Positions 1 to 53,027 of a stretch of DNA of 64,000 nt are shown in pieces. The stretch is from contig JABIHA010000126.1 of the NCBI GenBank assembly GCA_018649885.1, forward strand, positions 1-64,000, written 5' to 3'. Source of the DNA: Bacteriovoracaceae bacterium. Its GTDB lineage: Bacteria > Bdellovibrionota > Bacteriovoracia > Bacteriovoracales > Bacteriovoracaceae. Positions within the stretch are counted from its first letter, which is position 1; every line of letters begins with the position of its first letter. The notes beneath the pieces were generated by a model, which did no database searches, had not been told where the DNA came from, and was given only the letters and a program-made list of their open reading frames with translations. The position numbers were made by a program, and so were the translations under genes.

Positions 1-15
1 TGAAATAGAATTCAT
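1..15 (-). CDS. 5' end of a gene running off the left edge (MNSIS...)
   Basis: Minus-strand ATG at 15 preceded by AAAAGGA SD-like sequence; only 5 codons visible. Confidence 0.3.
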
Positions 16-70
16 AATATTCCTTTTGGATGGATTTTTGTTTGGCGATAAAAATCATATCAAAAGAATT

Positions 71-7119: not shown

Positions 7120-7234
7120 TTTTAACCCATCAAAACCAAATCCAGGATGGAATTGAGGACACATTGGCACTTAGATGCCGTCGTCCCACTAAGTATTAGA
7201 GATGAGAATTTTAAAAAGTTATGAGGAGAATTTC

Positions 7235-10200
7235 ATGTTACGTCGCCAATTCCGCGGGACCCTGTCCTACACAGTTATGCTTACTACACTTTTATCAATA
7301 CTTTCATTCAACCAAGCTCTCTTTGCCCAACATGGTAATGGGAATCACGGTGGTGGAAACCATGGTAATGGAAACCATGGCAATGGAAACCACAATGGTG
7401 GATCCGGAGATACCTTCACCATTGGTGGCCAAAACCAAAACTGGGAAGATAGCTATAAAGGGAGAATCAACTTTAAGCTAAGTGATGACTCAAAACTTTT
7501 CGAGGCCAAGAAGATGGTTAGGCGAATGGAGAGAGAGCTAGAAGTTAAAAGCTCACAATTTGAGACTATTAAGTCAGCACTAAAAGCCCTTGAATCGAAA
7601 AAAAGTGCACAGGTGAGTAAAAGAGATAAAGCTGTTGCAAAAATAGATAGTGCTAAAGCAGAAAAAACGGCACTTACAACTCAGAAGCAAACACTAGCTT
7701 CACAAATGGCCACCTTAAAAACGCAAATCGCGTCGCTAACCACTAAAATTAATCAGCTGGCACCACAAGTTGAAGCCCTTAGACAAACAGTGGCCACGGA
7801 AAAAGAAAATGTTTCAAACTTGTTAGGCGCCCATCGTGAAGCAAAAAGAATTTTGAAGCTTCAAATGGATCAGTGTCTTGCAACTGAAACGCAAGTGGCC
7901 TGTAATCAAAAACCGGCCATCAAGCAATTAAAAATGGCAGTAAGAGAAACAAAAGAATTATACACTCAGGCCAATCTTGCTCTTGCAGCAATGAAAACTG
8001 CTTTGAAAGAAATGGATACTAAGCTTGCAAGACTTAATTCACAAAAAGATCAAAAGGTTGCAAGTAAGGCCCAGAAGAAGACCAAGCACGATGCAATCCC
8101 TGCAAAGATTGCACAACTTAATACAAATATTCGAACCTATAAGGCCCAAAAAGAGGCTGCCAAGACACAAATTCTCAGACTTAATCCTCAGATTTCATCA
8201 AAGAGGAGAAGTAAGCAACAGGCCAAAGTAGCAGTTGAAATGGCCGCATCTAACGTAGCTATGGCCCAGCAAGCAAAGCGTGCTATTAAAGATCAATTGA
8301 TATCAAGAATACTCGAGGAAAATGAAAGAGGGTTTTCCATGGGGAGAGGTGCAGGAAGAAGTGAAGGAGAAGAGCTCGCTTCTAGAAGAGGAAATCAATA
8401 CGGAGAAGCTCACGGTTTACAAGAGGGTCGTGCAGCCGGAGAAGATTTTGGGAAGCAGAGAGATTACAATATTGGAGAAAGACAAGGTGAAGAAAAAGCA
8501 AAAACTGATGCGAATGTAAACGGAAAAGCTGATGGCACAAGAATTGGTCGCTCTCAGGGAAACAAAAGAGCAGGCCAGCTACAGGGAAATAGTGACGGTA
8601 TTGCAAATGCCATTGCATCAGATGCTGCTAGAAAGGGAGCTGCTGAAGGGGCAACAAAGGGAATGGATGAGGCCATTAGTTACGGAATGAGAGAGGGTTA
8701 TAGAATTGGGGAAGCTCAGGCCATAAGTAATGAGGAATCTAAGCCACTAACAGGTAGAACAGTTAATGGACCATTTGCAGGGACATTCGCCCATTACGTT
8801 CCCGGCTATCCTGAAAATGGATCACCTCATTTATTTTATGATTCATCATATGCCACAAGGATTAGAAGAAGACTTCCTAAAACGGCATTTTTAGATGGAT
8901 ACCGTGCTGGCTACCATAGGGCCTCACAAAGAGCTTATGAAAGACTCATCGATGGAATTTACACTCAGGCAAAAGACTACTACTACGAAGAAGCTTATAC
9001 TAGAGCGCTTGAAGTTGAGTACACTGCAAGTTTTGATCGTGGCCATAGATATGGTTACGGCAGGCTATATTCTCCCAACTATGAAAGGGTTAAAGAGTAT
9101 TACAGAGGCCGTGCCTACAGTCAGTACTTATCAAGTCCAGATTTGGGTTCGAGAGATTACAAGGACTCCTATGCAAGTGCCAAGTCCTCTGCCTATAGAC
9201 AGAAGTATGCTCAGATTAAAGCTGCCTCACTTGAGGCAAAAAGAAGTGAAGTTTTTAATAGTAATAAAGCAGGACAAACAGAAATTTACAGAAAGAAAAG
9301 ATATGCTAGTGCAACAAAAACCTACAAGAACTACCCTGTCTTATCATTTGTAAAATCAACTCTTAGTGACCACGGAATCACGAAAGTTGGCGCAGCTGAT
9401 GCAAAATACCAACCAGGGGAAAATGTCTCAGTTGATATTATCATTAAAAATACAGGGCATAAGACAGCAAGCGGAGTAAGTGTAACTCTTGCAAGCGGAG
9501 AGAGAGCAACACTTCCAGCAATTGCGGGGAAAAGTACAGTCACAGTTAAAGGTGCAATTGCTACGGCCATTAGTGGTGGACAACAGGTTGGATCAACATT
9601 TCAGACAAGCTTAAGTTTAAAGTACCTACTCAAATCAAATGATTCAATTCAAGGTGCTTTTTATGATCAATCAGGCCAAAGCCTAGTTGCTTCTGGAAGA
9701 AAAAATAGTAAGTCGGTAAGTTATCCATTTAACTTGTCGATGGTAAGCATAAGGGGAGAGATCATTCTTGGGGGAGAAAATGATCTAAGTGTAAGTGTGA
9801 AAAACCAATCAGCAAGATCGTATGACGGTGATTTACAAGTAGAGCTGAATAGTTCTATAGGCGATATCACAAGCGAGTTGTCTCAACTCAGTCATTATGC
9901 AAAGGGTACGAGCTCTCTTACGGGTGCAAAAATTCTTGTTGATGGTGAAAGAAACCTTTTCTCGAAAGTTTATGTGAGTGCCACTATTAGTAAAAATGGT
10001 GTCTTACTTGGCAGCACAACTACTGATGCTGTCAAGTTAGTCAAAACTCTTTTTAAGAATAAAAAAGGCGTTCCCACTATAGTGGCCGATAGTGAGAGTG
10101 CTTATTCTGAGCTAAAAGATTTGATGGCCGAATTAGGTGGGATGGATAGCTTTGCAGTTCTAGATTTAAGTCTTGGAAGTGCCAATAAAAAAATCTTAGA

Positions 10201-10999
10201 TGCAGGTCTTTCTGGAAAAGTTGCTCTTGTCATTGATTCAAGAAACTCATCTAGTTCAATTGCACCTAAGATATCAGGGTTATTTAAAGCAAGTAACTCA
10301 TCAGTAGTCTTTGTAGATACAGATGATATAGGACTTTCTAGGGCCAAATCAAAAACACCTGGGTTTAAATCTTCTGTTAATTTTAGAGCAAAATTAGCCA
10401 AATTTGGAACTGTAAACCTTTACGCTTCAAATCCACTTAGTGGAAATGGCATCAAAAGAGTTAACGCCTTCCAGGGTTCATTAAAAGAAATTGAAAAGTC
10501 CTTGTCCCTTGCAAGACTTCTTGCAAAGTCAGATTCGGCATTACTAGAGTTCCTTGCTACAAATTTAAAAGGCTCAGCTCTTGTGAGTCCACAGCAAACT
10601 CTTCTTGCCAACACTCAGCTGGCGATGACTAGAGCTTTACAAGACATCTTGATGGCAGACAAATTGTACAACCGTAGTGCCTCGCAAGGCTTAAGAGCTG
10701 CAAGCTCATCAACTGCTATGATTATGAAAATTGCTTCAGCTGCTAAGTCTTTCGCTGGAAGTAAAAAGACAGGGGCTAATATACTTCTTCAAATAAGTGA
10801 TGAAGTACTTGATGAAGCTTTTTCTCATCATGACCCAATTGAAGATGTGGTTAGCTCAAAAATTGAGAGTGCTGTTAAAAAAGCACTTAAAAAACCACTT
10901 AAAAATTCAGACAAATATTTCAAAAAGATCATCAAGAAAAAAGATCTTTTGAAATCGGCAGAAAAGCAAGCTTACCGTTTTGCTCCCTTTGCCATCTAG
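7235..10999 (+). CDS. Large secreted protein: His/Gly/Asn repeat, long coiled coil, GxxxG helical repeats, Ig-like beta domains
   Basis: SD GAGGAG before ATG 7235; signal ending ALFA; HGNGN repeats; K/A/Q heptads; G-x3-G runs; QPGENVSVDIIIKNTG (CARDB/Ig-like). Confidence 0.85.
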   Translation: MLRRQFRGTLSYTVMLTTLLSILSFNQALFAQHGNGNHGGGNHGNGNHGNGNHNGGSGDTFTIGGQNQNWEDSYKGRINFKLSDDSKLFEAKKMVRRMERELEVKSSQFETIKSALKALESKKSAQVSKRDKAVAKIDSAKAEKTALTTQKQTLASQMATLKTQIASLTTKINQLAPQVEALRQTVATEKENVSNLLGAHREAKRILKLQMDQCLATETQVACNQKPAIKQLKMAVRETKELYTQANLALAAMKTALKEMDTKLARLNSQKDQKVASKAQKKTKHDAIPAKIAQLNTNIRTYKAQKEAAKTQILRLNPQISSKRRSKQQAKVAVEMAASNVAMAQQAKRAIKDQLISRILEENERGFSMGRGAGRSEGEELASRRGNQYGEAHGLQEGRAAGEDFGKQRDYNIGERQGEEKAKTDANVNGKADGTRIGRSQGNKRAGQLQGNSDGIANAIASDAARKGAAEGATKGMDEAISYGMREGYRIGEAQAISNEESKPLTGRTVNGPFAGTFAHYVPGYPENGSPHLFYDSSYATRIRRRLPKTAFLDGYRAGYHRASQRAYERLIDGIYTQAKDYYYEEAYTRALEVEYTASFDRGHRYGYGRLYSPNYERVKEYYRGRAYSQYLSSPDLGSRDYKDSYASAKSSAYRQKYAQIKAASLEAKRSEVFNSNKAGQTEIYRKKRYASATKTYKNYPVLSFVKSTLSDHGITKVGAADAKYQPGENVSVDIIIKNTGHKTASGVSVTLASGERATLPAIAGKSTVTVKGAIATAISGGQQVGSTFQTSLSLKYLLKSNDSIQGAFYDQSGQSLVASGRKNSKSVSYPFNLSMVSIRGEIILGGENDLSVSVKNQSARSYDGDLQVELNSSIGDITSELSQLSHYAKGTSSLTGAKILVDGERNLFSKVYVSATISKNGVLLGSTTTDAVKLVKTLFKNKKGVPTIVADSESAYSELKDLMAELGGMDSFAVLDLSLGSANKKILDAGLSGKVALVIDSRNSSSSIAPKISGLFKASNSSVVFVDTDDIGLSRAKSKTPGFKSSVNFRAKLAKFGTVNLYASNPLSGNGIKRVNAFQGSLKEIEKSLSLARLLAKSDSALLEFLATNLKGSALVSPQQTLLANTQLAMTRALQDILMADKLYNRSASQGLRAASSSTAMIMKIASAAKSFAGSKKTGANILLQISDEVLDEAFSHHDPIEDVVSSKIESAVKKALKKPLKNSDKYFKKIIKKKDLLKSAEKQAYRFAPFAI

Positions 11000-11074: not shown

Positions 11075-13387
11075 CTATTTAGCCGGCTTAAGCTTCTTAG
11101 ATTCAGAGATTTTTTCCGTCCAAATAAGAATTGCAGGTAAAAACACTAAATCGATAAGAAGCGCACTACCTAGGACAAATGAGCTGAGGATTCCAAAGTA
11201 GAAGTTAGGCATAAAATCACCAAAAATGAAGCAACCAAAACCAAAGATAAGAATAATTGTTGTCCAAACGAGGGCCGGTCCAGTATTGGTTAAAACTTCT
11301 TTGATGGCATTAGTTGGTGACATACCTGCCTTTGTTTTCTCCACGTAATTTACTAAAAAGTGGATTGTGTCATCAACCGCAATACCAAGGGCCACAGAGG
11401 CAACAATAGAGCACCCTACATCAAAGTCTTTTCCTATGAGCCATAGAAATCCTCCACCAAAAATGAGAGGTATTACATTGGGAAGCATAGAAATCATCGC
11501 CATGGGAATTGATCTAAAGATTAAGAGCATCACAATTGAAACTAGAAGGATCGCCATCCCAATGGAAGTCACAAAAGTTTCCACAATATGCCCGTTCATT
11601 TCCTTATAGAGAGGAATCTTACCCGTGATATAACCATTAAGTCCCAGCTCACTGATCTTACTTTTAATTTTATCCATATATTCCAGTGAGATTTTACTCT
11701 CTTGGAATTTCCACAAGACAGAAACTCTAAGTCCCGACTTATCGATCGTCACCCTATCTGTTAATCCCATCCCTTGAGGAAGACCGAGATTATAAAGAAA
11801 AATCTCTTGAGCAATTTTCTTTCTATCTTTTGGAAGTCGATAGAAACTTGCATCTCCCCCGTGAAGGTGCTGATTCATCTCTTTGATAGTTTGGATAATA
11901 GAAAGTGTTCTATTAACAAAGGGGATTTCTTCAAGCCATAACTGTAACTTCTCAACCTTTTGGAGAAATTCTGGGTCCATGGCCCCTTCACTTACTCCTG
12001 TATCAAGATAAATTTCCGGTCCTGTATTGCCACCCAAATTGTCTTTTAAAAAACGATTCGCTTTTCTTACTGGAACCCTTTTAGAAAAATAGCTAAATGG
12101 ATCTGAATTCACTTCACCAAGGGAGCCTAGATAGAAAAAGCCAATAGTAAGGGCCACAAATCCTAAAATTATAGATTTTGTATATTTTGATAAATAAAAA
12201 ATGAATTTATCAACATATCTTCCATCCCATCTTCTACTATTACTGGCACTTCCTTTAATGGGAAGCATAAGTAGAAGTGGAATAATAAGAAATATTGTGA
12301 GAACCCAAGCAAAGAGCGTTCCAAGACTGGCCAGAAGCCCTAAGTTAGATATTGGTGTAAGCGGAGAAGTCATTAGACTTAAAAAACCCAAACTAGTAGT
12401 GAAACTAGTTAGAAAAGTTGGCCAAAGATTTTTGGTGATACTCTCCCTGGTCGCTTCTTTTCTATTTTTACCACTTCCCAGTGCTTGAAAATAAGTGACC
12501 AATATATGAACTGTATCTGCAATAGATATGGCCACCAAGATTCCAGGCAGTGATGAGACTAAATTATTCAACTTAATATCTAGCCAACCAGATAGGCCAA
12601 AACACATAGCGATTGAAGACCCAATGATAATGAAGGGAAGAAAAATTCCAAGAACACTTCTGAAGCTTAAAAATAGAAAAAATAGAAGAAGAAAAGTCAT
12701 CGCCGGCATAAAGACAGCGAGGTCAGCTTCCATCACCTCTAAAAATTGGAAGTTAATTATCGGACCACCAGTTAGATAGAAATTAATGTCTGGAAACTTC
12801 TTTTGATATTCTCTTTGAATCTTTCTAGCACCCTTTGCTATGGCCACGTAATCACTCTCACCTTTAAATGTCGGTTTCATGCGAGCAAATACGAGAGCAA
12901 TATTAGCAGCCTTATTGACTAAAAATCCTGGTATCACCTTATGAGAAAGAGCAATCTTTTTTCTCTCGACCAAAAAGCGACTGTCTAGCTGTGCACCTTC
13001 GGGAAATAGTGCTTCGATTTCAATATCATCCATGGTGCTTTTGGCAAAATGAAAATTTGAAAGAGAATCCACTCTAATCACTTCAGGAACCAGCCACATT
13101 TTTTCAGTAACTTCTTTAATTATCTGAATTGTCTCTGGATTAAAAACACCCTTGGGATTATGGATTGCAAATACAGCACTTTCATCAGATCCAAATTGTT
13201 TTTCAAATTGTTCGAGTTTAATAATGAGTGGGTCATCACTTCGAAACCAATTCTTAACGCCAAAATCAGTTTCTATATTTACTAATCCAGCACTCAAAGA
13301 GAGACAAAATAGCAGAGAAAATAAAATACATCGTTTTGGGTTTTCTAATACAAATTTAATGATTTTTTGTTTAAACAATTCTTGCAT
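11075..13387 (-). CDS. MMPL/RND family transporter
   Basis: Two TM bundles with ISIADTVH and GIAVDDTIHF motifs and two periplasmic loops. Confidence 0.9.
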   Translation of the reverse strand: MQELFKQKIIKFVLENPKRCILFSLLFCLSLSAGLVNIETDFGVKNWFRSDDPLIIKLEQFEKQFGSDESAVFAIHNPKGVFNPETIQIIKEVTEKMWLVPEVIRVDSLSNFHFAKSTMDDIEIEALFPEGAQLDSRFLVERKKIALSHKVIPGFLVNKAANIALVFARMKPTFKGESDYVAIAKGARKIQREYQKKFPDINFYLTGGPIINFQFLEVMEADLAVFMPAMTFLLLFFLFLSFRSVLGIFLPFIIIGSSIAMCFGLSGWLDIKLNNLVSSLPGILVAISIADTVHILVTYFQALGSGKNRKEATRESITKNLWPTFLTSFTTSLGFLSLMTSPLTPISNLGLLASLGTLFAWVLTIFLIIPLLLMLPIKGSASNSRRWDGRYVDKFIFYLSKYTKSIILGFVALTIGFFYLGSLGEVNSDPFSYFSKRVPVRKANRFLKDNLGGNTGPEIYLDTGVSEGAMDPEFLQKVEKLQLWLEEIPFVNRTLSIIQTIKEMNQHLHGGDASFYRLPKDRKKIAQEIFLYNLGLPQGMGLTDRVTIDKSGLRVSVLWKFQESKISLEYMDKIKSKISELGLNGYITGKIPLYKEMNGHIVETFVTSIGMAILLVSIVMLLIFRSIPMAMISMLPNVIPLIFGGGFLWLIGKDFDVGCSIVASVALGIAVDDTIHFLVNYVEKTKAGMSPTNAIKEVLTNTGPALVWTTIILIFGFGCFIFGDFMPNFYFGILSSFVLGSALLIDLVFLPAILIWTEKISESKKLKPAK

Positions 13388-13455
13388 GGGATTCTATCTC
13401 ACATTTTTTTTCATGGAGTATAGCAAGTAGATCGGAAAATTCCCAATGCTAGAAT

Positions 13456-14241
13456 CTAATTTGAGTTTAAGTCATCTCTAAACCTATTGATTAAATCCTC
13501 GAATTGGCCAGTTTTTGACACCTTTTCAATAAATTCAAGATTCTTCTTCTCAAATTTCCACTTATTGTGTCTGTAATACTCGTATTGAGCAGGATTCAGC
13601 TCAACTTTTTGGCCGCTTTTTGGAATAGTCACCAATTTTTTATCGCCGTGAACCCAATCACCACCTTGAATGTATCGCAAAGCGAGAGATATCATCCCAG
13701 TAGCATTTTGACCGTTGAAATCGTGAATCAGTACCGGCTGCCTTGCCGTGTCGAGAACCACATCTAGTATATTGAAAAAACTTACAACTCCCCCATCCTT
13801 ACCCTTATCTGGAAATACGGGAATTGACTCCGACGCCTTCTTCCCAAAATACTTTTGTTGATCGATATCAATTGAAGGGTGATAGGGATCAATCGGATCT
13901 AGATAAGTCCTGGCCCCCACAACAAAGGGGTGAATAAATTCAAAATGATACTTCTCTTGTTGATCGAATTCCTCAAGTGCTAGGCCTGATGAGTATTCCC
14001 CATGTCCTTTTAGCCCTCGGTGATCAAGATGAAGTATTGTCTTCGGGAATGGGAGCCGTTTATAGGCGAGTCCTTCTCTCAAGATTTCAAGACCCTTCTT
14101 CCCCAAGATTTTTGATCTGTAAATCTTGTAGAAAGGATTGATCTTAACCACGCTAAATTTTATCAATGAAATTTTTTGATAAATACTAAATACGCTTATC
14201 GGAAACACCAATAGCGCTACAATCACAGGAATTCGTTTCAT
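13456..14241 (-). CDS. Exported protein-tyrosine-phosphatase-fold protein with degenerate active site
   Basis: Hydrophobic N-terminus; IYRS motif; QPVLIHDFNGQNATG aligns to PVLxHCxxGxDRTG. Confidence 0.6.
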   Translation of the reverse strand: MKRIPVIVALLVFPISVFSIYQKISLIKFSVVKINPFYKIYRSKILGKKGLEILREGLAYKRLPFPKTILHLDHRGLKGHGEYSSGLALEEFDQQEKYHFEFIHPFVVGARTYLDPIDPYHPSIDIDQQKYFGKKASESIPVFPDKGKDGGVVSFFNILDVVLDTARQPVLIHDFNGQNATGMISLALRYIQGGDWVHGDKKLVTIPKSGQKVELNPAQYEYYRHNKWKFEKKNLEFIEKVSKTGQFEDLINRFRDDLNSN

Positions 14242-14559
14242 TCTTACACCTCTCACTAATTCATCGGAAAAGAGAGACTTTGATTTAGGTTTAACAATTT
14301 ATAGGTGGGGTTTTCTGAAGTTGTTTGAGTAGCAAAACAGAGTGGGATAGGCGGTTTTATTTTCTCTAAATATCTACAATCTAAGGGCCAAAAATATAGT
14401 TTGATAAAGAAATGGTGAAGACAGGGTGAAGTTTGATTATTGCCCCACAATAACGAGTGATTCCACTAGTTCCCTTGTGCCCATTTTCCCGTATAGGATT
14501 TATACTATTAGAGGGAAAGTTTACTTCGACAGTTGGATCAGAAATTGTTTAGCGAGAAA

Positions 14560-15909
14560 ATGATAGGCGGAAATTTAGATATATTGGGTTATGTTTTCAT
14601 AGCACTTTTGGGTCTATTATTTTTTCTACGTGAGAAGTATGGACGAAAAAAAACGGAAACGGATCTAAAAAATAGTATCAAGAAAAAGCAAGTTGAACCC
14701 TACACTCTTCACCCCCTAATTAAAACAGAGTTATGCTTTGGCTGTGCCGCCTGTGTCATGGAATGCCCAGAAGAAGGCGTTATGGGACTTCTTTCGGGAA
14801 AAGCAATTCTGGTAAAACCAAATAAATGTGTTGGTCACGGAGTTTGCAAAGATATCTGTCCAAATGAGGCCATTGAATTAGTTATCGGAACAAAGAATTT
14901 GCCAATTGAGATACCCAACTTAACACCACACTTTGAAACTAATGTGGATGGACTCTATATTGTTGGAGAACTGGGAGGGATGGGTCTTATAAGAAATGCT
15001 GTCAAGCAAGGGATGCTGGCCATAGAGCACGCAAAAGCACAGCTTAAAAGTCGCAATATTGATTTTGTTACGGACCATGATGTCGTGATCGTTGGAGCGG
15101 GTCCTTCTGGATTTTCTGCTACCCTTGCTTGTAAAAAAGAAGAGCTTAACTATCTTTGCCTTGAACAAGAAGAATTTGGTGGGGCCATAAGACACTACCC
15201 TAGACAAAAAATTGTCATGAGCTTTCCTCTTGAATTTCCGATTGTCGGGAAAATGACTTTTCGAAAAAACATTGTTGAAAAAGAAGAAATTCTCGAAAGA
15301 TGGAATCAAGTAAGAGAAAAAGAAAACTTAAATATTTTAGAGAATCATCGTTTTGATAGCCTCGAGAAAAAAGGTAATCACTTTATCATTCACACACCGA
15401 ATAAATCATATACTACCAAAGTAGCAGTTATTGCAATGGGCGTAGGCGGTACACCCAGAAAGCTTGGTGTAGAAGGTGAAAACTTAGAAAAAATATCTTA
15501 CCGTTTAATCGATGCGAAAAATTACACTAATCAAAATATAGTTGTTGTTGGCGGGGGGAACTCGGCAGCAGAAGCTGCTGCAAGTTTGAGTCAACCTGAG
15601 TTAGGCAACAAAGTAGTCCTTGTCTGTCGAAAGGACAACCTTAATAAGTGTAATGAAACAAATATCGATATTGCTTCCAGGAAATCAAAAGCAGGAGATC
15701 TAGAAATTAAATACGAAAGTATTGTAGAAAGTATTGATGAAGATACAATCACGCTAAATTGTGATGGAACAATAGAAAAGATTGAAAACCATTTTATATT
15801 CGTTTTTGCAGGATCTGAAAAACCATTTCCTTTTCTACGAAGCCTCGGTGTCGAGATTGAAAAAATGTATGGGACACCACTTAAGGAAAAGTCTGATGTT
15901 GCAGTATAA
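14560..15909 (+). CDS. Membrane-anchored 2x[4Fe-4S] ferredoxin fused to thioredoxin-reductase-like FAD/NAD(P)H oxidoreductase
   Basis: N-terminal TM; CFGCAACVMECP and CVGHGVCKDICP; IVGAGPSG; VVGGGNSA; alternative TTG start at 14533. Confidence 0.9.
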   Translation: MIGGNLDILGYVFIALLGLLFFLREKYGRKKTETDLKNSIKKKQVEPYTLHPLIKTELCFGCAACVMECPEEGVMGLLSGKAILVKPNKCVGHGVCKDICPNEAIELVIGTKNLPIEIPNLTPHFETNVDGLYIVGELGGMGLIRNAVKQGMLAIEHAKAQLKSRNIDFVTDHDVVIVGAGPSGFSATLACKKEELNYLCLEQEEFGGAIRHYPRQKIVMSFPLEFPIVGKMTFRKNIVEKEEILERWNQVREKENLNILENHRFDSLEKKGNHFIIHTPNKSYTTKVAVIAMGVGGTPRKLGVEGENLEKISYRLIDAKNYTNQNIVVVGGGNSAAEAAASLSQPELGNKVVLVCRKDNLNKCNETNIDIASRKSKAGDLEIKYESIVESIDEDTITLNCDGTIEKIENHFIFVFAGSEKPFPFLRSLGVEIEKMYGTPLKEKSDVAV

Positions 15910-16999
15910 ATATATATCACTATCAATTTTTGCATTGGTATTTCTAACAGTAGTGGGGTGTCAACCACAGCAACCTGAAGCAACCTCAGGGACTGCCCCT
16001 CTTACAAGTTTTGACCATCTTGGTATTACTGGAAATTGTAGTACTTGCCATGAAAAAGACCTGCCTGAAAAAGACCATGGTGGGAAACTAGACTGTGAAT
16101 ACTGCCACCAAGTCGATAGCTGGAAAGGAAATGTAGATTACTCACATGTCCCTTCCCCGCATTCGTGTAATCTTTGTCACGAAGTTGAAAGACCAAGGCC
16201 TGATCACGGTGACAAAAATGATTGCATTCTTTGCCACAAAACCAAATCATGGGGAAAAGAAGTTTTCTTTGAACATACCCCCAAGCCTACAAGTTGTTCC
16301 ACCTGTCATACAATTGATAGACCCGACAAAAATCACGGTGCTCAAAATGATTGCGTTCTTTGTCATCAAACAAAAAAAGGGGAAAAAGAAATCGACTTCG
16401 AGCACAATCCCAAACCTGCAAGCTGTACGGCATGCCATGAAGCAGAAAGACCCGACAAAGATCATGGCAATAAACTTGGATGTGTAGATTGTCATCAAAC
16501 GGCCTCATGGGAGAAAGATGCCATATACCACCACACTCCACGACCTAGTAGCTGCAGTCAATGTCACGTAAAAGACAGACCGGCTGCAAATCACGGTCTT
16601 GCAATGGATTGCACAAGCTGTCATAAAACCGATAACTGGGGTAAAGAGCAATTCTACGCCCACGCACCGATTCCAAATAGCTGTACTGAATGTCATGAAG
16701 GACAAAGGCCTAGTAGAACGACCTATCCAGGGCCAAGCAAAGGAAAGCAAGAAGGTCATTATAATAATACAGATTGTCTAGGTTGCCATAAGACTGAAGC
16801 AAAAGATGATAAGTGGATTTTTGATCATGGTGGTGCAAAAGACAAAAATATTAAGTACTGCCTTCCATGTCACTATGATGGCGGCTGGAAAAAACATGGA
16901 ATATTTGGAAGTATCGGAGGCTTCTATAAAGATAGTGGTAAATGTTATGACTGCCACAACATAAGAAAGAGTTGGGAAGAAGGTCCGAAAAAGAAATAA
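15896..16999 (+). CDS. 14-heme c-type cytochrome lipoprotein
   Basis: ATG 15896 with SD AAGGA overlapping upstream gene; lipobox VVG-C; 14 CxxCH counted. Confidence 0.92.
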   Translation: MLQYKYISLSIFALVFLTVVGCQPQQPEATSGTAPLTSFDHLGITGNCSTCHEKDLPEKDHGGKLDCEYCHQVDSWKGNVDYSHVPSPHSCNLCHEVERPRPDHGDKNDCILCHKTKSWGKEVFFEHTPKPTSCSTCHTIDRPDKNHGAQNDCVLCHQTKKGEKEIDFEHNPKPASCTACHEAERPDKDHGNKLGCVDCHQTASWEKDAIYHHTPRPSSCSQCHVKDRPAANHGLAMDCTSCHKTDNWGKEQFYAHAPIPNSCTECHEGQRPSRTTYPGPSKGKQEGHYNNTDCLGCHKTEAKDDKWIFDHGGAKDKNIKYCLPCHYDGGWKKHGIFGSIGGFYKDSGKCYDCHNIRKSWEEGPKKK

Positions 17000-17136
17000 A
17001 GAAGTTTATTCAAAAGTAAATTGAGTGATTAGCCTAATTTAATTTATGCATGCGTATTATTTTGTAAAAAGTTCTATTGAAATTATTTTCAATGGGGTTT
17101 TGATATTTTTATTTTTAAAAAAGAATTGGAAAAAAC

Positions 17137-17180
17137 GTGAACAAAGTCACCGTTGCCAAAGAGTTCAAAAACGATACTCT
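17137..17180 (+). promoter_or_regulatory. Possible Crp/Fnr-family site abutting a sigma-70-like promoter
   Basis: GTGA-ACAAAG-TCAC (17137-17150), then TTGCCA-16 nt-TACTCT upstream of ATG 17199. Confidence 0.3.
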
Positions 17181-17198
17181 ATTGTGGGAAAAAAATAG

Positions 17199-19316
17199 AT
17201 GAATCTATTTAAAATATATTTCACAATTCTATTTACCTTACTGGTAACTATCAGCTGCCAGCCAGAGCAACCTGAAGCAACAACTGGTACTGCCCCTCGT
17301 ACAAATTTTGATCACGCAGGCCTCTCAACAAATTGTACAATTTGTCACACCAAAGATATTCCCGAAAAAGGACACGGAGAAAACCTAGGTTGTGAAAACT
17401 GCCACAACATAAAAAGCTGGACTCAAAACACAACTTTCTCTCACGTTCCCTATCCTAAAACCTGCAGCCAATGTCATGACTATGAAAGGCCAAGCCCAGA
17501 GCATGGTGAAAAAAATGATTGCATTCTTTGCCACAAAACAAGCTCCTGGAAAAGACAAACCTTCTATTCCCATGAACCAAGACCCGCAAGCTGCGTGGGT
17601 TGCCATGACACAAAAAGGCCAAACCCCGACCACGGAGGCAAACTCGATTGTGCCAGCTGCCACCAAGTGGTTTCATGGGAGAAAGAAATTTCCTTTGGCC
17701 ATGACCCCAAACCTACAAGCTGCCTGACCTGCCATGAACAGAGCAGACCAGATGCTGAGCACGGTGGAAAGCTTGGTTGTGTAAATTGCCATCAAACTGA
17801 TTCATGGGAAAAAGATATATCCTTTGCTCACGAGCCCAAACCTACCAGTTGCCTTGTATGCCATGAAACAAAAAGACCTGATCCTGACCACGGTCAAAAA
17901 CTCGGCTGTGTCAGTTGTCACCAAACAAACTCCTGGAAAAAAGAGATCTCCTACAACCATGATCCCAAACCCACTAGTTGTCTTGCCTGCCACGAAAGTA
18001 AAAGGCCTGTGCCAGACCATGGAAATAAACTCGGCTGTGTCAGTTGTCATCAGACAACTTCATGGGAAAAAGACATCGCCTTCTCACACGTACCTAAACC
18101 TACAAGTTGTCTCGCCTGTCATGAGACGAAACGTCCGGATCCTGATCACGGAAATAAACTCGGCTGTGTCAGCTGTCACCAAACAAGCTCATGGGATAAA
18201 GAAATTTCCTACGCTCACGACCCCAAGCCCGCAAGTTGCCTTGCCTGTCACGAGACGAAACGTCCAGACCCTGATCACGGAGAAAAACTTGGTTGTGTGA
18301 ATTGCCATCAAACAAGTTCATGGGAAAAAGAGATTTCTTACAATCACGATCCCAAACCGACATCATGCTTGAGTTGTCATGAAACTAAACGTCCCGACCC
18401 AGATCACGGTCAAAAGCTTGGTTGTGTTAATTGTCACCAAACAAGTTCATGGGAAAAAGAGATTTCTTACAACCACGATCCCAAACCGACATCATGCTTG
18501 AGTTGTCACGAAACTAAACGTCCCAACCCAGACCACGGTCAAAAACTTGGATGTGTTAACTGCCACCAAACTTCGTCTTGGAACGAGGACATCACTTACA
18601 GTCATGACCCCAAGCCCACAAGTTGCCTTACCTGCCACGAGACAAAAAGACCTGATCCAGACCATGGAGACAAACTTGGTTGTATTAGCTGTCATCAAAC
18701 AAGCTCATGGACGGAGGGTGTCTCATACAATCACGATCCCGCACCTACTAGCTGCCTTACATGTCATGAAAGCAATAGACCAGATCCTAATCACGGAGAT
18801 AAATTAGGCTGTATCAATTGCCATCAAACTTCATCATGGACTAAAAATATCAATTACAACCACAAACCAAAACCTACGAGCTGCACCAATTGTCATGAAG
18901 CTGAACGCCCCGATAGTGACCATGGAAACAAGCTAGGATGTGTCAGTTGCCATTCAACGAGTAGCTGGGGAAGTGATTTATCTTATGCCCACAACCCCAC
19001 TCCAAATAGCTGCACTGACTGCCATGAGGGCCAAAGACCAAGTGATACCACCTACCCAAAACCAAGTAAGGGAACTCAAGAAGGCCACTACATCGGTACA
19101 GATTGTTTTGATTGCCATAAAACTAAGACCAATAAAGGTAAATGGAACTTTGATCACGTCGATGCCAAAAATAATAAAATAAAATACTGCCTTCCATGTC
19201 ACTACGACGGAGGCTATAAAAAACATGGTGTTTGGGGATCAATTGGGGGATATTATAAGGGGCAAGGAAAGTGCTATGATTGCCATACTAAAAAGAAAAG
19301 CTGGGACGCTAAATAA
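17199..19316 (+). CDS. 30-heme c-type cytochrome lipoprotein
   Basis: Lipobox TIS-C; 30 CxxCH counted; paralog of 15896..16999. Confidence 0.95.
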   Translation: MNLFKIYFTILFTLLVTISCQPEQPEATTGTAPRTNFDHAGLSTNCTICHTKDIPEKGHGENLGCENCHNIKSWTQNTTFSHVPYPKTCSQCHDYERPSPEHGEKNDCILCHKTSSWKRQTFYSHEPRPASCVGCHDTKRPNPDHGGKLDCASCHQVVSWEKEISFGHDPKPTSCLTCHEQSRPDAEHGGKLGCVNCHQTDSWEKDISFAHEPKPTSCLVCHETKRPDPDHGQKLGCVSCHQTNSWKKEISYNHDPKPTSCLACHESKRPVPDHGNKLGCVSCHQTTSWEKDIAFSHVPKPTSCLACHETKRPDPDHGNKLGCVSCHQTSSWDKEISYAHDPKPASCLACHETKRPDPDHGEKLGCVNCHQTSSWEKEISYNHDPKPTSCLSCHETKRPDPDHGQKLGCVNCHQTSSWEKEISYNHDPKPTSCLSCHETKRPNPDHGQKLGCVNCHQTSSWNEDITYSHDPKPTSCLTCHETKRPDPDHGDKLGCISCHQTSSWTEGVSYNHDPAPTSCLTCHESNRPDPNHGDKLGCINCHQTSSWTKNINYNHKPKPTSCTNCHEAERPDSDHGNKLGCVSCHSTSSWGSDLSYAHNPTPNSCTDCHEGQRPSDTTYPKPSKGTQEGHYIGTDCFDCHKTKTNKGKWNFDHVDAKNNKIKYCLPCHYDGGYKKHGVWGSIGGYYKGQGKCYDCHTKKKSWDAK
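17334..19010 (+). repeat. Intragenic tandem repeat, 129 bp / 43 aa, 13 copies
   Basis: Unit CxxCH-ETKRPDPDHGxKLG-CxxCH-QTSSWEKEISYxHDPKPTS; near-identical DNA units start at 18311 and 18440. Confidence 0.9.
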
Positions 19317-19319
19317 AAA

Positions 19320-20642
19320 ATGAAGAAAACCGCCCTTCTCTTATTTTTTCTAATAATAGCTGGACAGGCGTTGGGGAAATCCACTATTGGAAGAGTTACC
19401 TTTGGAAGTTATTTTTCAGATGAAAACTTTAAAAGAAATACTGCTGAGGGCAAAAGTAATGACTTTCTGATTTTTTCTTCCAGGTTTTATTTGAAAGGTG
19501 ATAAAGCTGCTCCCTATAATCATGATTTCGCACTAGATCTAAGGGGCAAGTACGATTTTTACGGAAAACTCGATAAAGACAAACAAACACTCCACGATGA
19601 ATATGATGCTCACCCCAGACAGGCTTATATAAAAAAATCAAGAAGATCACATGGGCTAGAATACCAACTTGGGCGATTTAGTGTTGATGGAGTTGGAATT
19701 AACTACGTAGATGGTTTGCAGACAAATTATAAATTAAATTCGACATTCAAACTTGGAGCTTACGGTGGACTCATTCCCAAACTCACAGGTGAGCAAAAAT
19801 ATTCGTTTAACTCAAAATCTAAGCAGTCAGGAGTTCTACTTTTCTTTCGCCCTAGAAGACTAGGGTTCCGCAAATATTTTTTCTCCTCTCACGGTTTTTC
19901 TATCCAAGGCTACGGCTCTCAAACAGACCGCTCATTTTTGCATTCACACAATTCATATATCTGGGGTCGCAGAGGAAGGTTCTATTCCAATATAGTGCTC
20001 GATTTTGTGCCAAGAACATTTCTTCAAAAAGGTGACTTTAGCATCTCATCTGATTTGAGCAAAAAAGTATCAGCTGAACTTGGCTGGGGGACCCATGATA
20101 ATTTGGCCATTTCTAGAAGCAAGACCAAAAGAGAGGTAAAATACTCCAATCGCTACGGTGAAGTTACCACAAAACTCAGCTATGATTTCTGGGAGTACAA
20201 TGGGATATTCATTGAAGGCAAAATCCAAAGAAGAAAGTCTGATTCTTCATACTCAAACCAAAGTACTGTGGGCCTAGACTTCCCTCGATTTCTCAAAAAA
20301 GAATTTTCCCTTTATAGTTATTTTAGCTTTAGAAATGATTACGAAAAAAAGGAATACAAGGCCAACCTCGCCCTTTCCTACTTTGCAAGACTTTGGGAGT
20401 TGTTTATTGATCAGTCTATTTCGCAACAAAACTATGACAACAATCAAGTGCTAAGACCTATTGTAGCAGAACTGGGTTGGGCCTATTTCTGGGCAAGAGG
20501 TCTCATGACCACCTTCTCTTATCAATATTCAACAAATGCCAATGTAGATATATACCAAGTCCTTTTTAAATTATCTTATCGCTTTGGCAGTAAACCAAGC
20601 GCTCCTCTAAGAGAAGGCGCACCAAAGAAGGGGCATCTATGA
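19320..20642 (+). CDS. Probable outer-membrane beta-barrel (porin of a porin-cytochrome complex)
   Basis: Sec signal; aromatic-rich alternating beta-strand pattern; last strand LFKLSYRF plus a short tail; lies between multiheme genes with an ATGA overlap. Confidence 0.7.
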   Translation: MKKTALLLFFLIIAGQALGKSTIGRVTFGSYFSDENFKRNTAEGKSNDFLIFSSRFYLKGDKAAPYNHDFALDLRGKYDFYGKLDKDKQTLHDEYDAHPRQAYIKKSRRSHGLEYQLGRFSVDGVGINYVDGLQTNYKLNSTFKLGAYGGLIPKLTGEQKYSFNSKSKQSGVLLFFRPRRLGFRKYFFSSHGFSIQGYGSQTDRSFLHSHNSYIWGRRGRFYSNIVLDFVPRTFLQKGDFSISSDLSKKVSAELGWGTHDNLAISRSKTKREVKYSNRYGEVTTKLSYDFWEYNGIFIEGKIQRRKSDSSYSNQSTVGLDFPRFLKKEFSLYSYFSFRNDYEKKEYKANLALSYFARLWELFIDQSISQQNYDNNQVLRPIVAELGWAYFWARGLMTTFSYQYSTNANVDIYQVLFKLSYRFGSKPSAPLREGAPKKGHL

Positions 20643-22579
20643 TTTCTAGACTTCTTCTTTTACTCTTAGCGCTACTTTGTACTGGACCCAATGCATGGGC
20701 CGATAAAGAAGAGGGCCTATTCAATAAATTATTGGCACCAGGGCCACTATCACTTCCTCACCACGATCTAGAAGCAATGGATTGTCTTAAGTGTCACTCA
20801 GCAGGAGAAGGGGTTCCCAACGAAAAATGCTTGGCCTGCCATAAAGAAATTAAAGAACATGTAAAACTCAAAAAATCGTTTCATGGCAATAATGTAAAGG
20901 GAAGATGTCTTAAATGCCACACTGAACACTTAGGCCGAAAAAATGACACCACAAAAGTGAAACAGAGAACTTTTGAACACAAATTAACGGGCCATATATT
21001 AAAGGGCAAGCACAAGAAAACGAAGTGTATAGAATGCCACACGACTAAAAGGACCAAAAAGGCCTTTCGAAAAAATGAACCTCACTACCTAGGAACTACA
21101 ACGAGCTGTAAGGGATGCCACAAAAAAGATGACTCTCATAAATTTAAAGGAAAATGGGAAAAACTAGAGTGCTCAAAATGCCATGGTGAAAAGAAGTGGA
21201 AAGAAGACAACCACGATTTCACTCACAATAAAGATACCAAGCACAAAATTCTAGGCGCTCACAAGAAGCTTAAGTGTATTAAGTGCCACTTACCTAAGGG
21301 TAAGAAAGAAGATTCGATCTATAAATTTGAAGGCCTAAAAGAGAAACAATGCCTGACTTGTCATCAAAGTCGCCACAAAGAAAATTTTGGCCCTAAATTT
21401 GTCAAGAAATCGTGTAATACCTGTCACAACCAAAAAAGCTTTAAGATGGAAAAGTTTGATCACTCCATCACAGGATTTAAGCTTACTGATAAACATGCCA
21501 AATTGGATTGCATCAAGTGCCACAAGCAAAGTGATAAAAAGATGGAGATCAAATCAGAGCATTTTGTGTGGAAAGGCACAAAAGCAGATTGTCGAAGTTG
21601 CCACAAGCCAACTCACCACCAAAAATTCACCAAGAAATTTGAAAAACTCAAATGTACAACTTGTCATACAACCAAATCCTATAAAGATGAGGCCCATGCC
21701 AAAGCTAACTTTGATCACGGAACCACAAAATTTAAGCTGACGGGAAAACATAAGAAAAATTCATGTAGGAAATGCCACCTGGTAAATAAGAAATCTACTT
21801 ATGAATTTAAAAATGAGAAGTCAGGATACTGTTTAAGCTGTCACAAAACACCGCATACTGAACAGTTTCGTGACGATTTTTCTGAGCAGTCGTGTAACTC
21901 TTGTCACAGGACAGAAAGTTTCAAAGATGTCCACAGAAAGGAATTTGACCACAACGAAACTGAGTTTGAATTACTTGGTAAACATCAAAAAGTTAAGTGT
22001 CAAAAGTGTCACGTTCCAACTAACAAGACATTTAAAGAATCCCATAGTTTCAAAGGAAAATTTATATTTGATGAACTGGGTGAAAAAAGTTGTTTAACCT
22101 GCCACAAAGATCACCACAAATCGGAGATGGGACCAAACTGCAGAACCTGCCACACTGAAAGGGGCTGGAAAGTCCAAAGAGATTTCCACAAAGACATGCC
22201 TTTAACAGGTGTTCACTACACCCTTAGTTGTACTGAGTGCCATTTTGAAGAGAGAAAGCTCAAAGGTCTAGGTGACCAATGCATTGTGTGTCACACCAAA
22301 GATGATATACACCTTGGTAGCCTTCCTAAATGCGGAGCTTGCCACCACCAGGAAGTGTGGGAAGTGACAAGATTCAAGCACTCCATGACAAGATTCCCAC
22401 TAAGAGGAGTCCACAGGACACTCGATTGCAATTCATGTCATGGAAGTGGTAATTATCAAGGCACCCAGTCAAGCTGTATCAGCTGTCACACCTCTGATGC
22501 TCTTTCAGTGGCCAACCCTGTACATATCATGCCGCAATTTAATGATTGTAGTAGGTGCCATAATCAATTTAGTTTTTGA
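20639..22579 (+). CDS. 24-heme exported c-type cytochrome (three-heme FxH..F.L.G.H repeat type)
   Basis: Signal ending AWA; APGPLS..H; 24 CxxCH counted; recurring FDHxxTxFxLxGKH; Lys-rich. Confidence 0.93.
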   Translation: MISRLLLLLLALLCTGPNAWADKEEGLFNKLLAPGPLSLPHHDLEAMDCLKCHSAGEGVPNEKCLACHKEIKEHVKLKKSFHGNNVKGRCLKCHTEHLGRKNDTTKVKQRTFEHKLTGHILKGKHKKTKCIECHTTKRTKKAFRKNEPHYLGTTTSCKGCHKKDDSHKFKGKWEKLECSKCHGEKKWKEDNHDFTHNKDTKHKILGAHKKLKCIKCHLPKGKKEDSIYKFEGLKEKQCLTCHQSRHKENFGPKFVKKSCNTCHNQKSFKMEKFDHSITGFKLTDKHAKLDCIKCHKQSDKKMEIKSEHFVWKGTKADCRSCHKPTHHQKFTKKFEKLKCTTCHTTKSYKDEAHAKANFDHGTTKFKLTGKHKKNSCRKCHLVNKKSTYEFKNEKSGYCLSCHKTPHTEQFRDDFSEQSCNSCHRTESFKDVHRKEFDHNETEFELLGKHQKVKCQKCHVPTNKTFKESHSFKGKFIFDELGEKSCLTCHKDHHKSEMGPNCRTCHTERGWKVQRDFHKDMPLTGVHYTLSCTECHFEERKLKGLGDQCIVCHTKDDIHLGSLPKCGACHHQEVWEVTRFKHSMTRFPLRGVHRTLDCNSCHGSGNYQGTQSSCISCHTSDALSVANPVHIMPQFNDCSRCHNQFSF

Positions 22580-23211
22580 TGAACTATAGGCATTAAAACT
22601 GCATTTATTTTGTGTATTTTTGATTCGTTAATCATTCAGTGTCCATAATTTTGGGACTAAATGTAACAAATTAACTAACTAAGTCGCATCGATGTGCGAT
22701 GAAAAAAATAAAAATTTTACTAAAATTATCTTCAAACATTTCCAACTCAAAGATTTCGAAGAAAAGAGATAGGTAGTTCACGGGCCAGCAGAAGATTGAG
22801 TTTAAGGTTTAGTCAGGTGGCGGCCCTTTTATCACGGCATAGTTTAGAGTTGCTTTGATGGTGTTTGTGATGTGGTCGCTGTGTAGTTGATATATATTTT
22901 AGAGGATTGCTTTTACAATGGTAGGGTTAGGGGAGGAATTTCATCTCAGGAATTGCTAGCTTTGATGATAGGTTTTATTAGAAAAAAGTGCTTGGGAGAT
23001 GACTTTCCATTCTATTTTAAAAAGGAGGTATGGAAATGAGATTATTTTTTAGTGGTTGTGATACTCTTTAAAACTGGCCATGTGATACTTCTTTAATATC
23101 ATTCAACGTCCATAATCAAACTTTTATTTGAGTGCCCCTAGCAGTACTTTTTGAAGCCAGTATTTGGACGGAAAAACCGTGATAAGCTGCTGGAGCACTT
23201 GGAGGTTAAGG

Positions 23212-24081
23212 GTGAATATTGAGAAAATGAGTGATGATAAATTATTGAAAAGTGTTCTACTAGAAGTGAAAAAAGAAAAGGATCAACTCCATATTGTACT
23301 ACTTCACTTGAAAGAAATTTATAGAAGGAGATTATTTACTGAATACAACTGCCGAACACTTAATGAGTACTGTGTAAAAGAGCTGGGTTATACTCGTGGA
23401 GAAGCCTATTACCGGGTCACAGCGATGAAGTTAATGGCAAATTCTTCTCTCATTGAAAAGGCAATCCAAAAAGGAGAACTCTCTCTAACTGCTGCGGTTG
23501 TGGCCAGTGATTATCTCACAAAACACCCCGACAAATCCGTGATCAAAAAGGAGGAAGTTATTTCAAAAATTGCGAGAATGCCCATATCAAAAGTAAAAGA
23601 GATTTTGTCTAGACCGCCATCAGGGCCTAAGTACCCTCCGAAAAATGAAGTCTTCCCTAAGTTAAAGGTCTCTAAAAGAGTCTTGGAACTTTTGAGTCAG
23701 CTGCAAGATCTCACAGGAGAGGATCAGACCAAATTACTTGAAGTGTCCCTTGAGAATAAATTAAAGCAAGTTAAGAAATGTGAATCAAAAGCAATTCAAA
23801 AGCCTTCTCCAACACAAAGTGCAAGATCACGGTACATTCCCCAAGTGATAAAAAGAAAAATTCGAAGCAGGGCAAACTACACCTGCGAACATGTTAGCAT
23901 GCGCAGAGGAAGGTGCACTGAATCCAAAAACCTGGAGTTTGATCACCACATCATCCCCTATTCAAAGGGAGGGAAGAATACATTGGAAAATTTAAGACTT
24001 GTATGCAAAAATCACAATACAAGACAATTTGTTTTAGACTTTGGCCCAAAATCTTTAGAAAAAATCACGCGGAAAAGTTAA
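23212..24081 (+). CDS. HNH endonuclease with helical N-terminal domain
   Basis: GTG 23212 after SD GGAGGT; CEH..RC..LEFDHHIIPYSKGGKNTLENLRLVCKNHN. Confidence 0.85.
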   Translation: MNIEKMSDDKLLKSVLLEVKKEKDQLHIVLLHLKEIYRRRLFTEYNCRTLNEYCVKELGYTRGEAYYRVTAMKLMANSSLIEKAIQKGELSLTAAVVASDYLTKHPDKSVIKKEEVISKIARMPISKVKEILSRPPSGPKYPPKNEVFPKLKVSKRVLELLSQLQDLTGEDQTKLLEVSLENKLKQVKKCESKAIQKPSPTQSARSRYIPQVIKRKIRSRANYTCEHVSMRRGRCTESKNLEFDHHIIPYSKGGKNTLENLRLVCKNHNTRQFVLDFGPKSLEKITRKS

Positions 24082-24205
24082 CTCACTAAATTTCATTTTT
24101 GGGCTTGTTAAAAGCAAAAACTCTGTTTTGAAAATTTAAAATGCCAAATATAGTTACAGAGAAACTTTAGTCAGATAAGTTATTGAAGCGAGTTATTTCA
24201 AATAA

Positions 24206-42582: not shown

Positions 42583-42659
42583 GCACTCGTAGCTCAGCTG
42601 GATAGAGCAACGGATTTCTAATCCGTAGGTCGCAGGTTCGAGCCCTGCCGAGTGTGCCA
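42583..42659 (+). tRNA. tRNA-Arg(TCT)
   Basis: Cloverleaf: acceptor GCACTCG/CGAGTGT, D arm AGCTCAGCTGGATAGAGC, anticodon arm ACGGA-TTTCTAA-TCCGT, T loop GGTTCGAG, encoded CCA. Confidence 0.97.
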
Positions 42660-52781: not shown

Positions 52782-53027
52782 ATGGAAAAATGCTTAATTG
52801 AAGCTCAAATTGGTGTTGAAAGCACAATCTCATCAGTAGTTAGCTATCCAGGTGAAGAGGATTTTGCTCTACGTCTGGCCCATTTGGGATTCATCCAAGG
52901 TCAAAAAATCACTATTTTAAAAGTCGCTCCTATTTTTGGAGAACCTATTCTAATCTCCCTCAGAGGAGGCCAGTTGGCGCTCACCAAAAAAGAGGCCAGC
53001 TGTATTATGGTTGAAAGGAAACAATAA
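52782..53027 (+). CDS. feoA: Ferrous iron transport protein A
   Basis: RLAHLGF..G, APIFGEPI..LRG..LAL.K.EA. Confidence 0.9.
   Translation: MEKCLIEAQIGVESTISSVVSYPGEEDFALRLAHLGFIQGQKITILKVAPIFGEPILISLRGGQLALTKKEASCIMVERKQ

What the first reader, a model, noticed from the sequence alone, without database searches (positions are those of the whole stretch)
15896..19316. Two paralogous heme wires that differ essentially only in repeat number (5 vs 13 two-heme units)
Seen: both share the N-terminus CQPxQPEATxGTAPxTxFDH and a four-heme C-terminal cap (EGQRPSxTTYPxPSKGxQEGHY...IKYCLPCHYDGGxKKHG...GKCYDCH). Between them lie 5 or 13 copies of a 43-aa unit with two CxxCH plus two extra His (xHG and xHxP). 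Established: one spare His per CxxCH is what bis-His low-potential heme chains require. Inference: these are single-polypeptide modular nanowires whose reach is set by repeat count, with a common anchor and a common terminal docking head.
Basis: partly seen in the sequence, partly recalled or inferred. Interest (0 to 1): 0.85.

Follow-up and report, generated by a model that had tools for sequence, protein, structure and literature searches.

The report
Adjustable-length heme wires in Bdellovibrionota
Two neighbouring genes encode the same heme-binding protein at two lengths (14 and at least 30 hemes), built by repeating one two-heme module; they likely act as electron wires in a cell-envelope conduit resembling a predicted but untested system (PCC3), which makes them a clean natural series for testing how wire length sets reach.

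Summary
Observation confirmed. Genes A (15896-16999, 14 CxxCH) and B (17199-19316, 30 CxxCH) are lipoprotein paralogs with a shared N-terminus, 5 or 13 exact 43-aa two-heme units and a 70%-identical four-heme end; a spare His precedes every motif and none follows the last. One correction: public contigs from 5 of 7 runs hold an extra 129-nt unit, so B likely has 14 units (32 hemes). A third, 8-heme paralog lies elsewhere in the genome, and relatives span 4 to 44 hemes. The genes sit between a ferredoxin-FAD/NAD(P) oxidoreductase and a beta-barrel plus 24-heme cytochrome. Relatives add a membrane protein with the PCC3/PCC4 two-heme-b motifs; about 5% of 401 Bdellovibrionota genomes carry these parts. 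Best reading: bis-His wires of a PCC3-like porin-cytochrome conduit, likely fed by NAD(P)H. Variable-length repeat wires are already proposed for PCC3, so this is a new variant, not a new kind. The end block is not universal and recurs internally, so 'docking head' is unproven. Rod shape, location and direction of flow were not shown.

The parts
14533..15909 (+). Oxidoreductase: N-terminal transmembrane helix, 2x[4Fe-4S] ferredoxin domain, FAD/NAD(P)-binding domain (YpdA/TrxR-like); its end overlaps the start of gene A by 14 nt
   Evidence: Pfam Fer4_10, Pyr_redox_3; TIGR04018 below cut-off; hydrophobic window 14-32; present in 13 of 15 porin loci
15896..16999 (+). Gene A: 14-heme repeat lipoprotein (5 units plus four-heme end block)
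   Evidence: the only non-motif Cys is C22, in a lipobox-like context after a hydrophobic stretch
16037..16681 (+). Five 43-aa two-heme units of A
   Evidence: spacing 19/24; AF2 places a 7-residue helix at each 43-aa period
16682..16999 (+). Four-heme end block of A (two divergent two-heme modules)
   Evidence: 71/101 identical to that of B, 49/101 to the C149 paralog
17199..19316 (+). Gene B: 30-heme (likely 32) repeat lipoprotein
   Evidence: lipobox-like C20; exactly one spare His per motif
17334..19010 (+). Thirteen assembled 43-aa units of B; the middle units are the most alike
   Evidence: units 5, 7, 8, 9 are 86-95% identical in amino acids; longest exact DNA repeat 35 nt
18099..18220 (+). 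Place where public contigs show one more 129-nt unit than the window
   Evidence: joint 18220 to 18099 plus 7 letters in 5 of 7 runs
19011..19316 (+). Four-heme end block of B
19320..20642 (+). Predicted outer-membrane beta-barrel (porin) of no named family, 3 nt after B
   Evidence: Atlas feature neighbours are beta-barrel clusters, top hit commonest in Bdellovibrionota; no Pfam, NCBIfam or PDB match
20639..22579 (+). Gene C: 24-heme cytochrome with a signal-like N-terminus, likely periplasmic; orthologs carry 21-33 hemes in steps of three

Best explanation
A and B are paralogous lipoproteins made of tandem two-heme modules, and they likely fold into bis-His heme wires of different length that serve as the outer segment of a PCC3-like porin-cytochrome conduit, probably carrying electrons outward from NAD(P)H. 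Shown: module structure, His budget, paralogy, operon, co-occurring partners. Inferred path: NAD(P)H to FAD to 2x[4Fe-4S] (membrane-anchored oxidoreductase), to the two b hemes of the inner-membrane protein (encoded on contig C132 here), to periplasmic cytochrome C, through the beta-barrel, to A or B anchored by its lipidated Cys, to an outside acceptor (metal oxide, humic quinone or another cell). Inferred ligation: each module runs His-CxxCH-His-CxxCH and closes on itself, the first His binding the second heme and the second His the first heme, so modules can be added or lost without breaking the chain. At a recalled 0.8-1.0 nm per heme, A would reach about 11-14 nm, B about 24-32 nm and the 8-heme paralog 6-8 nm.
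For: One spare His before every motif and none after the last in A, B and the C149 paralog; 431 of 431 inner intervals in 37 capped proteins hold a spare His. 30 of 33 capped proteins that start with Met have an even heme count. 23.5-26 residues per heme, inside the 22-39 range quoted for PCC3 wires. Of 15 porin loci, 15 have the periplasmic cytochrome, 13 the oxidoreductase, 12 a repeat protein and 11 the membrane protein within the DNA fetched; two loci are cut by contig ends. Oxidoreductase in 21 and membrane protein in 22 of the same 401 genomes, 20 shared. 7 of 7 membrane proteins have two WX3HX13H motifs and SGXXG, the PCC3/PCC4 signature. Partner C has 21-33 hemes in steps of three, like PCC3 periplasmic cytochromes (21, 24, 27). 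Several relatives carry ccsA/resB in the cluster.
Against: No holo structure: AF2 pTM 0.47 and no fold match. Surface location is not shown, and the closest relatives of A/B are fused in frame to the cytoplasmic oxidoreductase (P0010, P0273), which points to the inner membrane. In this genome the membrane protein is unlinked and its first motif has His in place of Trp. Direction of flow is inferred only from the NAD(P)-binding domain. The ligation scheme rests on His positions alone. Homology of the porin and membrane protein to PCC3 reference sequences could not be tested.
Confidence: 0.55

Rival explanations
1. The wires face the periplasm and are tied to the inner membrane. They take electrons from the oxidoreductase and membrane protein and hand them, via the end block, to cytochrome C or the porin; length then matches periplasm width.
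For: In-frame oxidoreductase-wire fusions in two 59%-identical proteins from different sources, and these wires are the closest relatives of A/B (41-48%). The window's oxidoreductase groups with the fused ones (96/93, long branches). The oxidoreductase gene adjoins the wire gene in most loci.
Against: The fusions keep a lipobox-like Cys and could be cleaved. No fusion was found in 401 genomes; three long 'open frames' had stop codons. Lengths from 4 to 83 hemes are hard to fit to one periplasm width, and C already has periplasm-spanning size. The residue after the Cys is Gln, not the Asp that retains E. coli lipoproteins (recalled rule, may not apply here).
Confidence: 0.25
2. Same conduit, opposite direction: the wires collect electrons from outside donors (Fe(II), reduced humics, prey or partner cells) and feed the quinone pool or NAD(P)+.
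For: PCC3 was defined in Fe(II) oxidisers; EET genes in predatory classes were noted and electron extraction suggested.
Against: Bis-His hemes usually lie above NAD(P)H in potential (own knowledge), which favours outward flow. PCC3 function itself is untested. The cluster is patchy (about 5% of genomes), so it is not a core predation tool.
Confidence: 0.12
3. The repeats set storage capacity, not reach: the proteins are tethered electron buffers that are charged when oxygen is short and discharged later.
For: Capacitor roles are proposed in print for very large multiheme proteins; any chain of hemes stores charge.
Against: A conserved distinct end block and a dedicated porin are not needed for storage; strict head-to-tail periodicity fits a chain.
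Confidence: 0.06
4. The two genes or their length difference are assembly artefacts.
For: The B array does break de Bruijn assemblies, and one unit is probably collapsed.
Against: Single contigs in two runs span A and six units of B; synonymous divergence between A and B; units differ from each other.
Confidence: 0.02

Closest known systems
PCC3 porin-cytochrome cluster (PMC5566968; PMC10734462)
   Same: Porin, periplasmic multiheme protein of 21/24/27 hemes, repeat-built second multiheme protein of variable size (10-35 or more hemes, modelled as long and mostly linear), about 300-aa membrane protein with two WX3HX13H and SGXXG.
   Different: Reported from Proteobacteria; four genes only. Here: Bdellovibrionota, lipid-anchored charged wires with a strict two-heme unit and a conserved end block, an added FAD/NAD(P)-FeS oxidoreductase, two or three paralogs of different length, and an unlinked membrane protein in this genome.
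PCC4 / ptdABCDEFG cluster (PMC5566968; bioRxiv 10.1101/2023.11.21.568154)
   Same: Porin, FAD/NAD(P)-binding oxidoreductase, two 4Fe-4S clusters, ferric-reductase-like membrane protein, multiheme cytochromes.
   Different: Fixed 4-, 5- and 10-heme cytochromes and no repeat wire; flavin and FeS domains on separate genes there, one polypeptide here.
GSU1996 dodecaheme single-chain wire (PDB 3OV0)
   Same: Single polypeptide wire built by concatenating heme modules.
   Different: Three-heme c7 modules (PMC11492766); only motif-level sequence similarity and no structural match.
OmcS/OmcE/OmcZ polymer nanowires (recalled; mentioned in PMC11492766)
   Same: Linear chains of closely spaced hemes.
   Different: Length comes from polymerising subunits; here it is encoded as repeats in one chain, and the His budget closes within the chain.
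Emticicia oligotrophica plasmid pEMTOL02 cluster (NC_018749.1, EMTOL_RS21085-21110; unstudied as far as my search showed)
   Same: ccsA, motif-bearing membrane protein (29%), oxidoreductase (37%), C-like cytochrome (32%) and a 40-heme repeat protein in one run.
   Different: Its long cytochrome uses a three-heme repeat and lacks the end block; its last gene matches the porin only weakly (E 0.02).

Membership tests
PCC3 | Outer-membrane beta-barrel gene in the cluster | tested here: met
   Atlas neighbours of 19320-20642 are beta-barrel clusters; strands not counted
PCC3 | Periplasmic multiheme cytochrome with about 21-27 hemes | tested here: met
   Gene C has 24 motifs, orthologs 21-33; location predicted from the N-terminus only
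PCC3 | Second multiheme protein made of repeats, 22-39 residues per heme, variable heme number | tested here: met
   A 26.2 and B 23.5 residues per heme; family range
PCC3 | That protein is extracellular | not testable with these tools
   Lipobox-like Cys present; fusions in relatives argue for another location
PCC3 | Extracellular cytochrome rich in Thr/Ser/Ala/Gly | tested here: inconclusive
   Only charge was counted: 95 of 367 residues in A and 163 of 705 in B are K/R/D/E, unlike the description
PCC3 | Inner-membrane protein with two WX3HX13H and SGXXG | tested here: met
   7 of 7 relatives; own-genome homolog has SGIIG and one full motif, the other with His for Trp
PCC3 | Membrane-protein gene in the same cluster | tested here: not met
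   In this genome it is on C132:27337-28179; linked in 11 of 15 related loci
PCC3 | Five transmembrane helices in the membrane protein | tested here: inconclusive
   A crude hydropathy scan found 2-4 windows in 3 of the 7 sequences scanned
PCC3 | Sequence homology of porin and membrane protein to PCC3 references | not tested
   Reference sequences are images or absent in the supplements read
PCC4 / Ptd | FAD/NAD(P) oxidoreductase and two 4Fe-4S clusters in the cluster | tested here: met
   Pfam hits on 14533-15909; description
PCC4 / Ptd | Three cytochromes of 4, 5 and 10 hemes, no long repeat cytochrome | tested here: not met
   14, 30 and 24 hemes
GSU1996-type c7 wire | Three-heme c7 modules and the c7 fold | tested here: not met
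   Two-heme period; no match at Z 2 or more among 48,161 chains, from an apo model of moderate confidence
OmcS-type polymer nanowire | Subunits polymerise, with a His from one subunit binding a heme of the next | not testable with these tools
   His count closes within one chain, which argues against it but does not exclude it

The most novel reading that the evidence does not exclude
One porin conduit, fed straight from NAD(P)H and bypassing the quinone pool, takes interchangeable wire adapters of 8, 14 and 30-32 hemes, so the cell chooses its electron reach by which paralog it makes; the long one is still gaining and losing units within the population, and in this predator-related lineage it could reach into prey or partner cells.
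Probability: 0.15. Interest if true: 0.85.

Novelty: new variant of a known kind. Interest (0 to 1): 0.55.

Why it matters
No solved structure matched this two-heme repeat, and PCC3-type giant cytochromes are untested. A family with a fixed anchor, a fixed end and a variable number of exact modules (0, 1, 2, 3, 4, 5, 6, 8 and more units) is a ready-made ruler for asking how single-chain wire length sets distance, rate and potential, and a simple part for engineered bioelectronic wires. The cluster also joins a PCC3-like outer arm to a PCC4-like NAD(P)H input in a lineage known for predation, where electron exchange with the outside has only been suggested.

Tried and rejected
Fold searches: the 8-heme paralog model was poor (pLDDT 55) and matched nothing; the model of A matched nothing in PDB or among viral models. 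This shows neither a new fold nor a different one. PDB profile hits (HmcA, GSU1996, MtrA, MtrC) reflect CxxCH density, not alignment in register. The complex prediction of porin with end block was not available, so docking is untested. No RNA holder listed. Search for oxidoreductase-wire fusions: none in 401 genomes; the three long frames checked had stops; the last protein search returned only P0010 and P0143 as fusions among 17 hits. The end block alone matched 0 of 60 nearest relatives. No S/T-P-S/T hematite-binding motif in A, B or the C149 paralog. Promoter and terminator counts were at chance level; no credible Rfam match in 13000-24500; GC shows no island; no phage match. Atlas features for A gave only generic c7/c3 clusters at 0.90 or less. 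The unit tree is mostly unresolved. Pfam Phage_G on B is below cut-off and rejected. Earlier-findings searches by sequence and words were empty. Scripts stopped working.
Full report
Observation. The window has two co-directional ORFs, A (15896-16999, 367 aa) and B (17199-19316, 705 aa). A has 14 CxxCH and B 30, spaced 19/24 for 5 and 13 units, then 31/28/28; shuffles give at most 3. Each has one non-motif Cys, after a hydrophobic stretch (C22, C20), read as a lipoprotein anchor (inference). End blocks are 71/101 identical, mature N-termini 18/26, and half of the identical codons in the end block differ silently (35 of 71), so the duplication is old. In the unit tree the two first units stand apart (99), A2 pairs with B2 (98) and B9 with B10 (98); the rest is unresolved. 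B's middle units are the most alike, so B likely grew by internal duplication.

Assembly. Runs holding this DNA are marine or seawater metagenomes. One contig in X1 and one in X2 span 15700-18169. Five of seven runs laid hold a 138-nt contig that adds one 129-nt unit between 18220 and 18099; depths were 8.6, 4.8, 3.3, 3.9 and 3.7 against flanks of about 4-8, and the shared repeat node in X6 had about double depth (9.1) while in X2 it did not (7.5). B likely has 14 units; a second paralog elsewhere or a mixed population is not excluded. Three runs also read T at 16379, which turns the one Gly in the otherwise invariant Trp column of A into Trp.

Heme ligation. A spare His lies before every motif and none after the last, in A, B and a third paralog. 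In 37 capped proteins (chosen from the 155 then held by a score of 35 or more to the end block at the C-terminus), 431 of 431 inner intervals have a spare His, 35 have one before the first motif and 30 none after the last. 30 of the 33 that start with Met have even heme counts. The chain thus parses as His-CxxCH-His-CxxCH-Trp modules from the first FDH to the last SW, the end block being two divergent modules. A His 6-7 residues before a motif is unlikely to bind that same heme (own knowledge), so cross-ligation within each module is the simplest closed scheme. This is inference. AF2 with 111 sequences gave pLDDT 73, pTM 0.47 and a short helix every 43 residues; I could not measure its shape, and it matched no solved fold.

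Family. A finds 645 representatives at E 0.001 or better, including a 129-motif protein. Complete capped proteins have 6 to 44 hemes; a 4-heme lipoprotein that is only the end block lies beside the membrane-protein and porin genes in G385. This genome has an 8-heme paralog on C149 and an end-block fragment on C21, both seen on other public contigs. The last module is terminal in 69 of 73 strong matches (redundant set), but CLPCH recurs internally at four-heme steps in long relatives, and only 6 of 13 repeat proteins in the 15 porin loci end with it. Two paralogs in one cluster also occur in G255 (19 and 21 hemes) and G329 (14 and 9).

Context. Upstream is a membrane-anchored ferredoxin-FAD/NAD(P) oxidoreductase; downstream a beta-barrel-like protein and a 24-heme cytochrome. 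Nine of ten named genome loci with a relative are Bdellovibrionales, Pseudobdellovibrionaceae, Bdellovibrionaceae or Oligoflexia, and two of them recur as same-phylum genomes, which places the window in Bdellovibrionota. The porin occurs in 14 of 300 other genomes; of its 15 loci, 15 have C, 13 the oxidoreductase, 12 a repeat protein and 11 a 280-aa membrane protein. In 401 genomes the oxidoreductase occurs in 21 and the membrane protein in 22, 20 shared; these are related genomes, so no test is claimed. Seven of seven membrane proteins carry two WX3HX13H and SGXXG; Pfam Ferric_reduct matches only one weakly (E 0.11). Here the homolog is on C132 and ccsA/resB on C10. A cultured Bacteroidota carries the same core on a plasmid, with a different, three-heme repeat protein.

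A complication. P0010 and P0273 (59% identical; Logan and ENA) have the oxidoreductase fused in frame to a capped 10-heme wire through a hydrophobic stretch that keeps the lipobox-like Cys; their oxidoreductases group with the window's (96/93, long branches). This ties wire and oxidoreductase functionally and raises the option that these wires face the periplasm. I could not see their DNA, and found no fusion in 401 genomes.

Mechanism. Most likely (0.55) NAD(P)H feeds FAD, FeS and the membrane b hemes, then C, the porin and the lipid-anchored wire, with reach set by unit number. Shown: parts, repeats, His budget, linkage. Inferred: ligation, shape, location, direction, acceptor. Rivals: inner-membrane periplasmic wire (0.25), inward flow (0.12), capacitor (0.06), artefact (0.02).

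Comparison. PMC5566968 (passages, sections 15-17, supplements 1, 5, 7) defines PCC3 and PCC4, notes repeat-built cytochromes as likely wires and gives the membrane-protein motifs; the sequences in its Figure S1 and the body of Table S4 were not readable and bear on membership. PMC10734462 (passages) gives 21/24/27 and 10-35 hemes for PCC3, linear models and length varying with heme number. bioRxiv 10.1101/2023.11.21.568154 (passages) describes a porin cluster with the same flavin, FeS and ferric-reductase-like input. PMC11492766 (passages, section 11) covers predicted single-chain wires. bioRxiv 10.1101/2022.03.26.485925 (passages) notes EET genes in Bacteriovoracia and Bdellovibrionia. bioRxiv 10.1101/2025.02.27.639646 (passages) states PCC3 is untested. 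Passages of PMC9386147, PMC12133095, PMC7399161, PMC8258643 and PMC11495043 did not describe this cluster. Nine searches showed no paper on this repeat family or cluster in Bdellovibrionota; the library lacks most subscription papers. It works like PCC3; formal membership is open, with one feature (linked membrane protein) unmet in this genome and reference homology untested.

Verdict. Real, well conserved in anatomy, a new variant of a predicted kind of system.

Noticed in passing
window 16379: Three public runs read T here, giving Trp at A residue 162; the window's Gly is the only exception in that column among 18 units.
   Followed up: partly
G000:C149:236-958 and C21:108857-109324: Third paralog with 8 hemes, unlinked to the cluster, and an end-block-only fragment about 90% identical to it that lacks the anchor; both occur on other public contigs.
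   Followed up: partly
G000:C132:27337-28179: Orphan copy of the cluster's membrane protein, away from any multiheme gene.
   Followed up: yes
P0010, P0143, P0273: In-frame fusion of the oxidoreductase to the capped wire in the closest relatives of A/B.
   Followed up: partly
P0029 (3274 aa): 129 CxxCH motifs, more than the 113 quoted as the record in PMC11492766.
   Followed up: no
L097:13-10278 (G336:C33) and L093:9074-11968 (G367:C27): An 83-heme, 3422-aa lipoprotein in the same cluster position, and a 37-heme one with a long run of 23-residue spacings.
   Followed up: no
NC_018749.1:78197-89995 (L057): Cultured Emticicia oligotrophica carries the shared core on a plasmid with a 40-heme three-heme-repeat protein; a tractable model.
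   Followed up: partly
G000:C40:43034-52155: A second cluster of multiheme genes (2-11 motifs each) unrelated in repeat type.
   Followed up: no
window 7202-10999: 1265-aa ORF with no Pfam match, a His/Gly/Asn-rich N-terminal repeat and a long coiled-coil-like stretch.
   Followed up: no
window 23164-24081, 42583-42656, 53011-54909: HNH-domain gene just after the operon, a tRNA, and feoB about 30 kb away.
   Followed up: no
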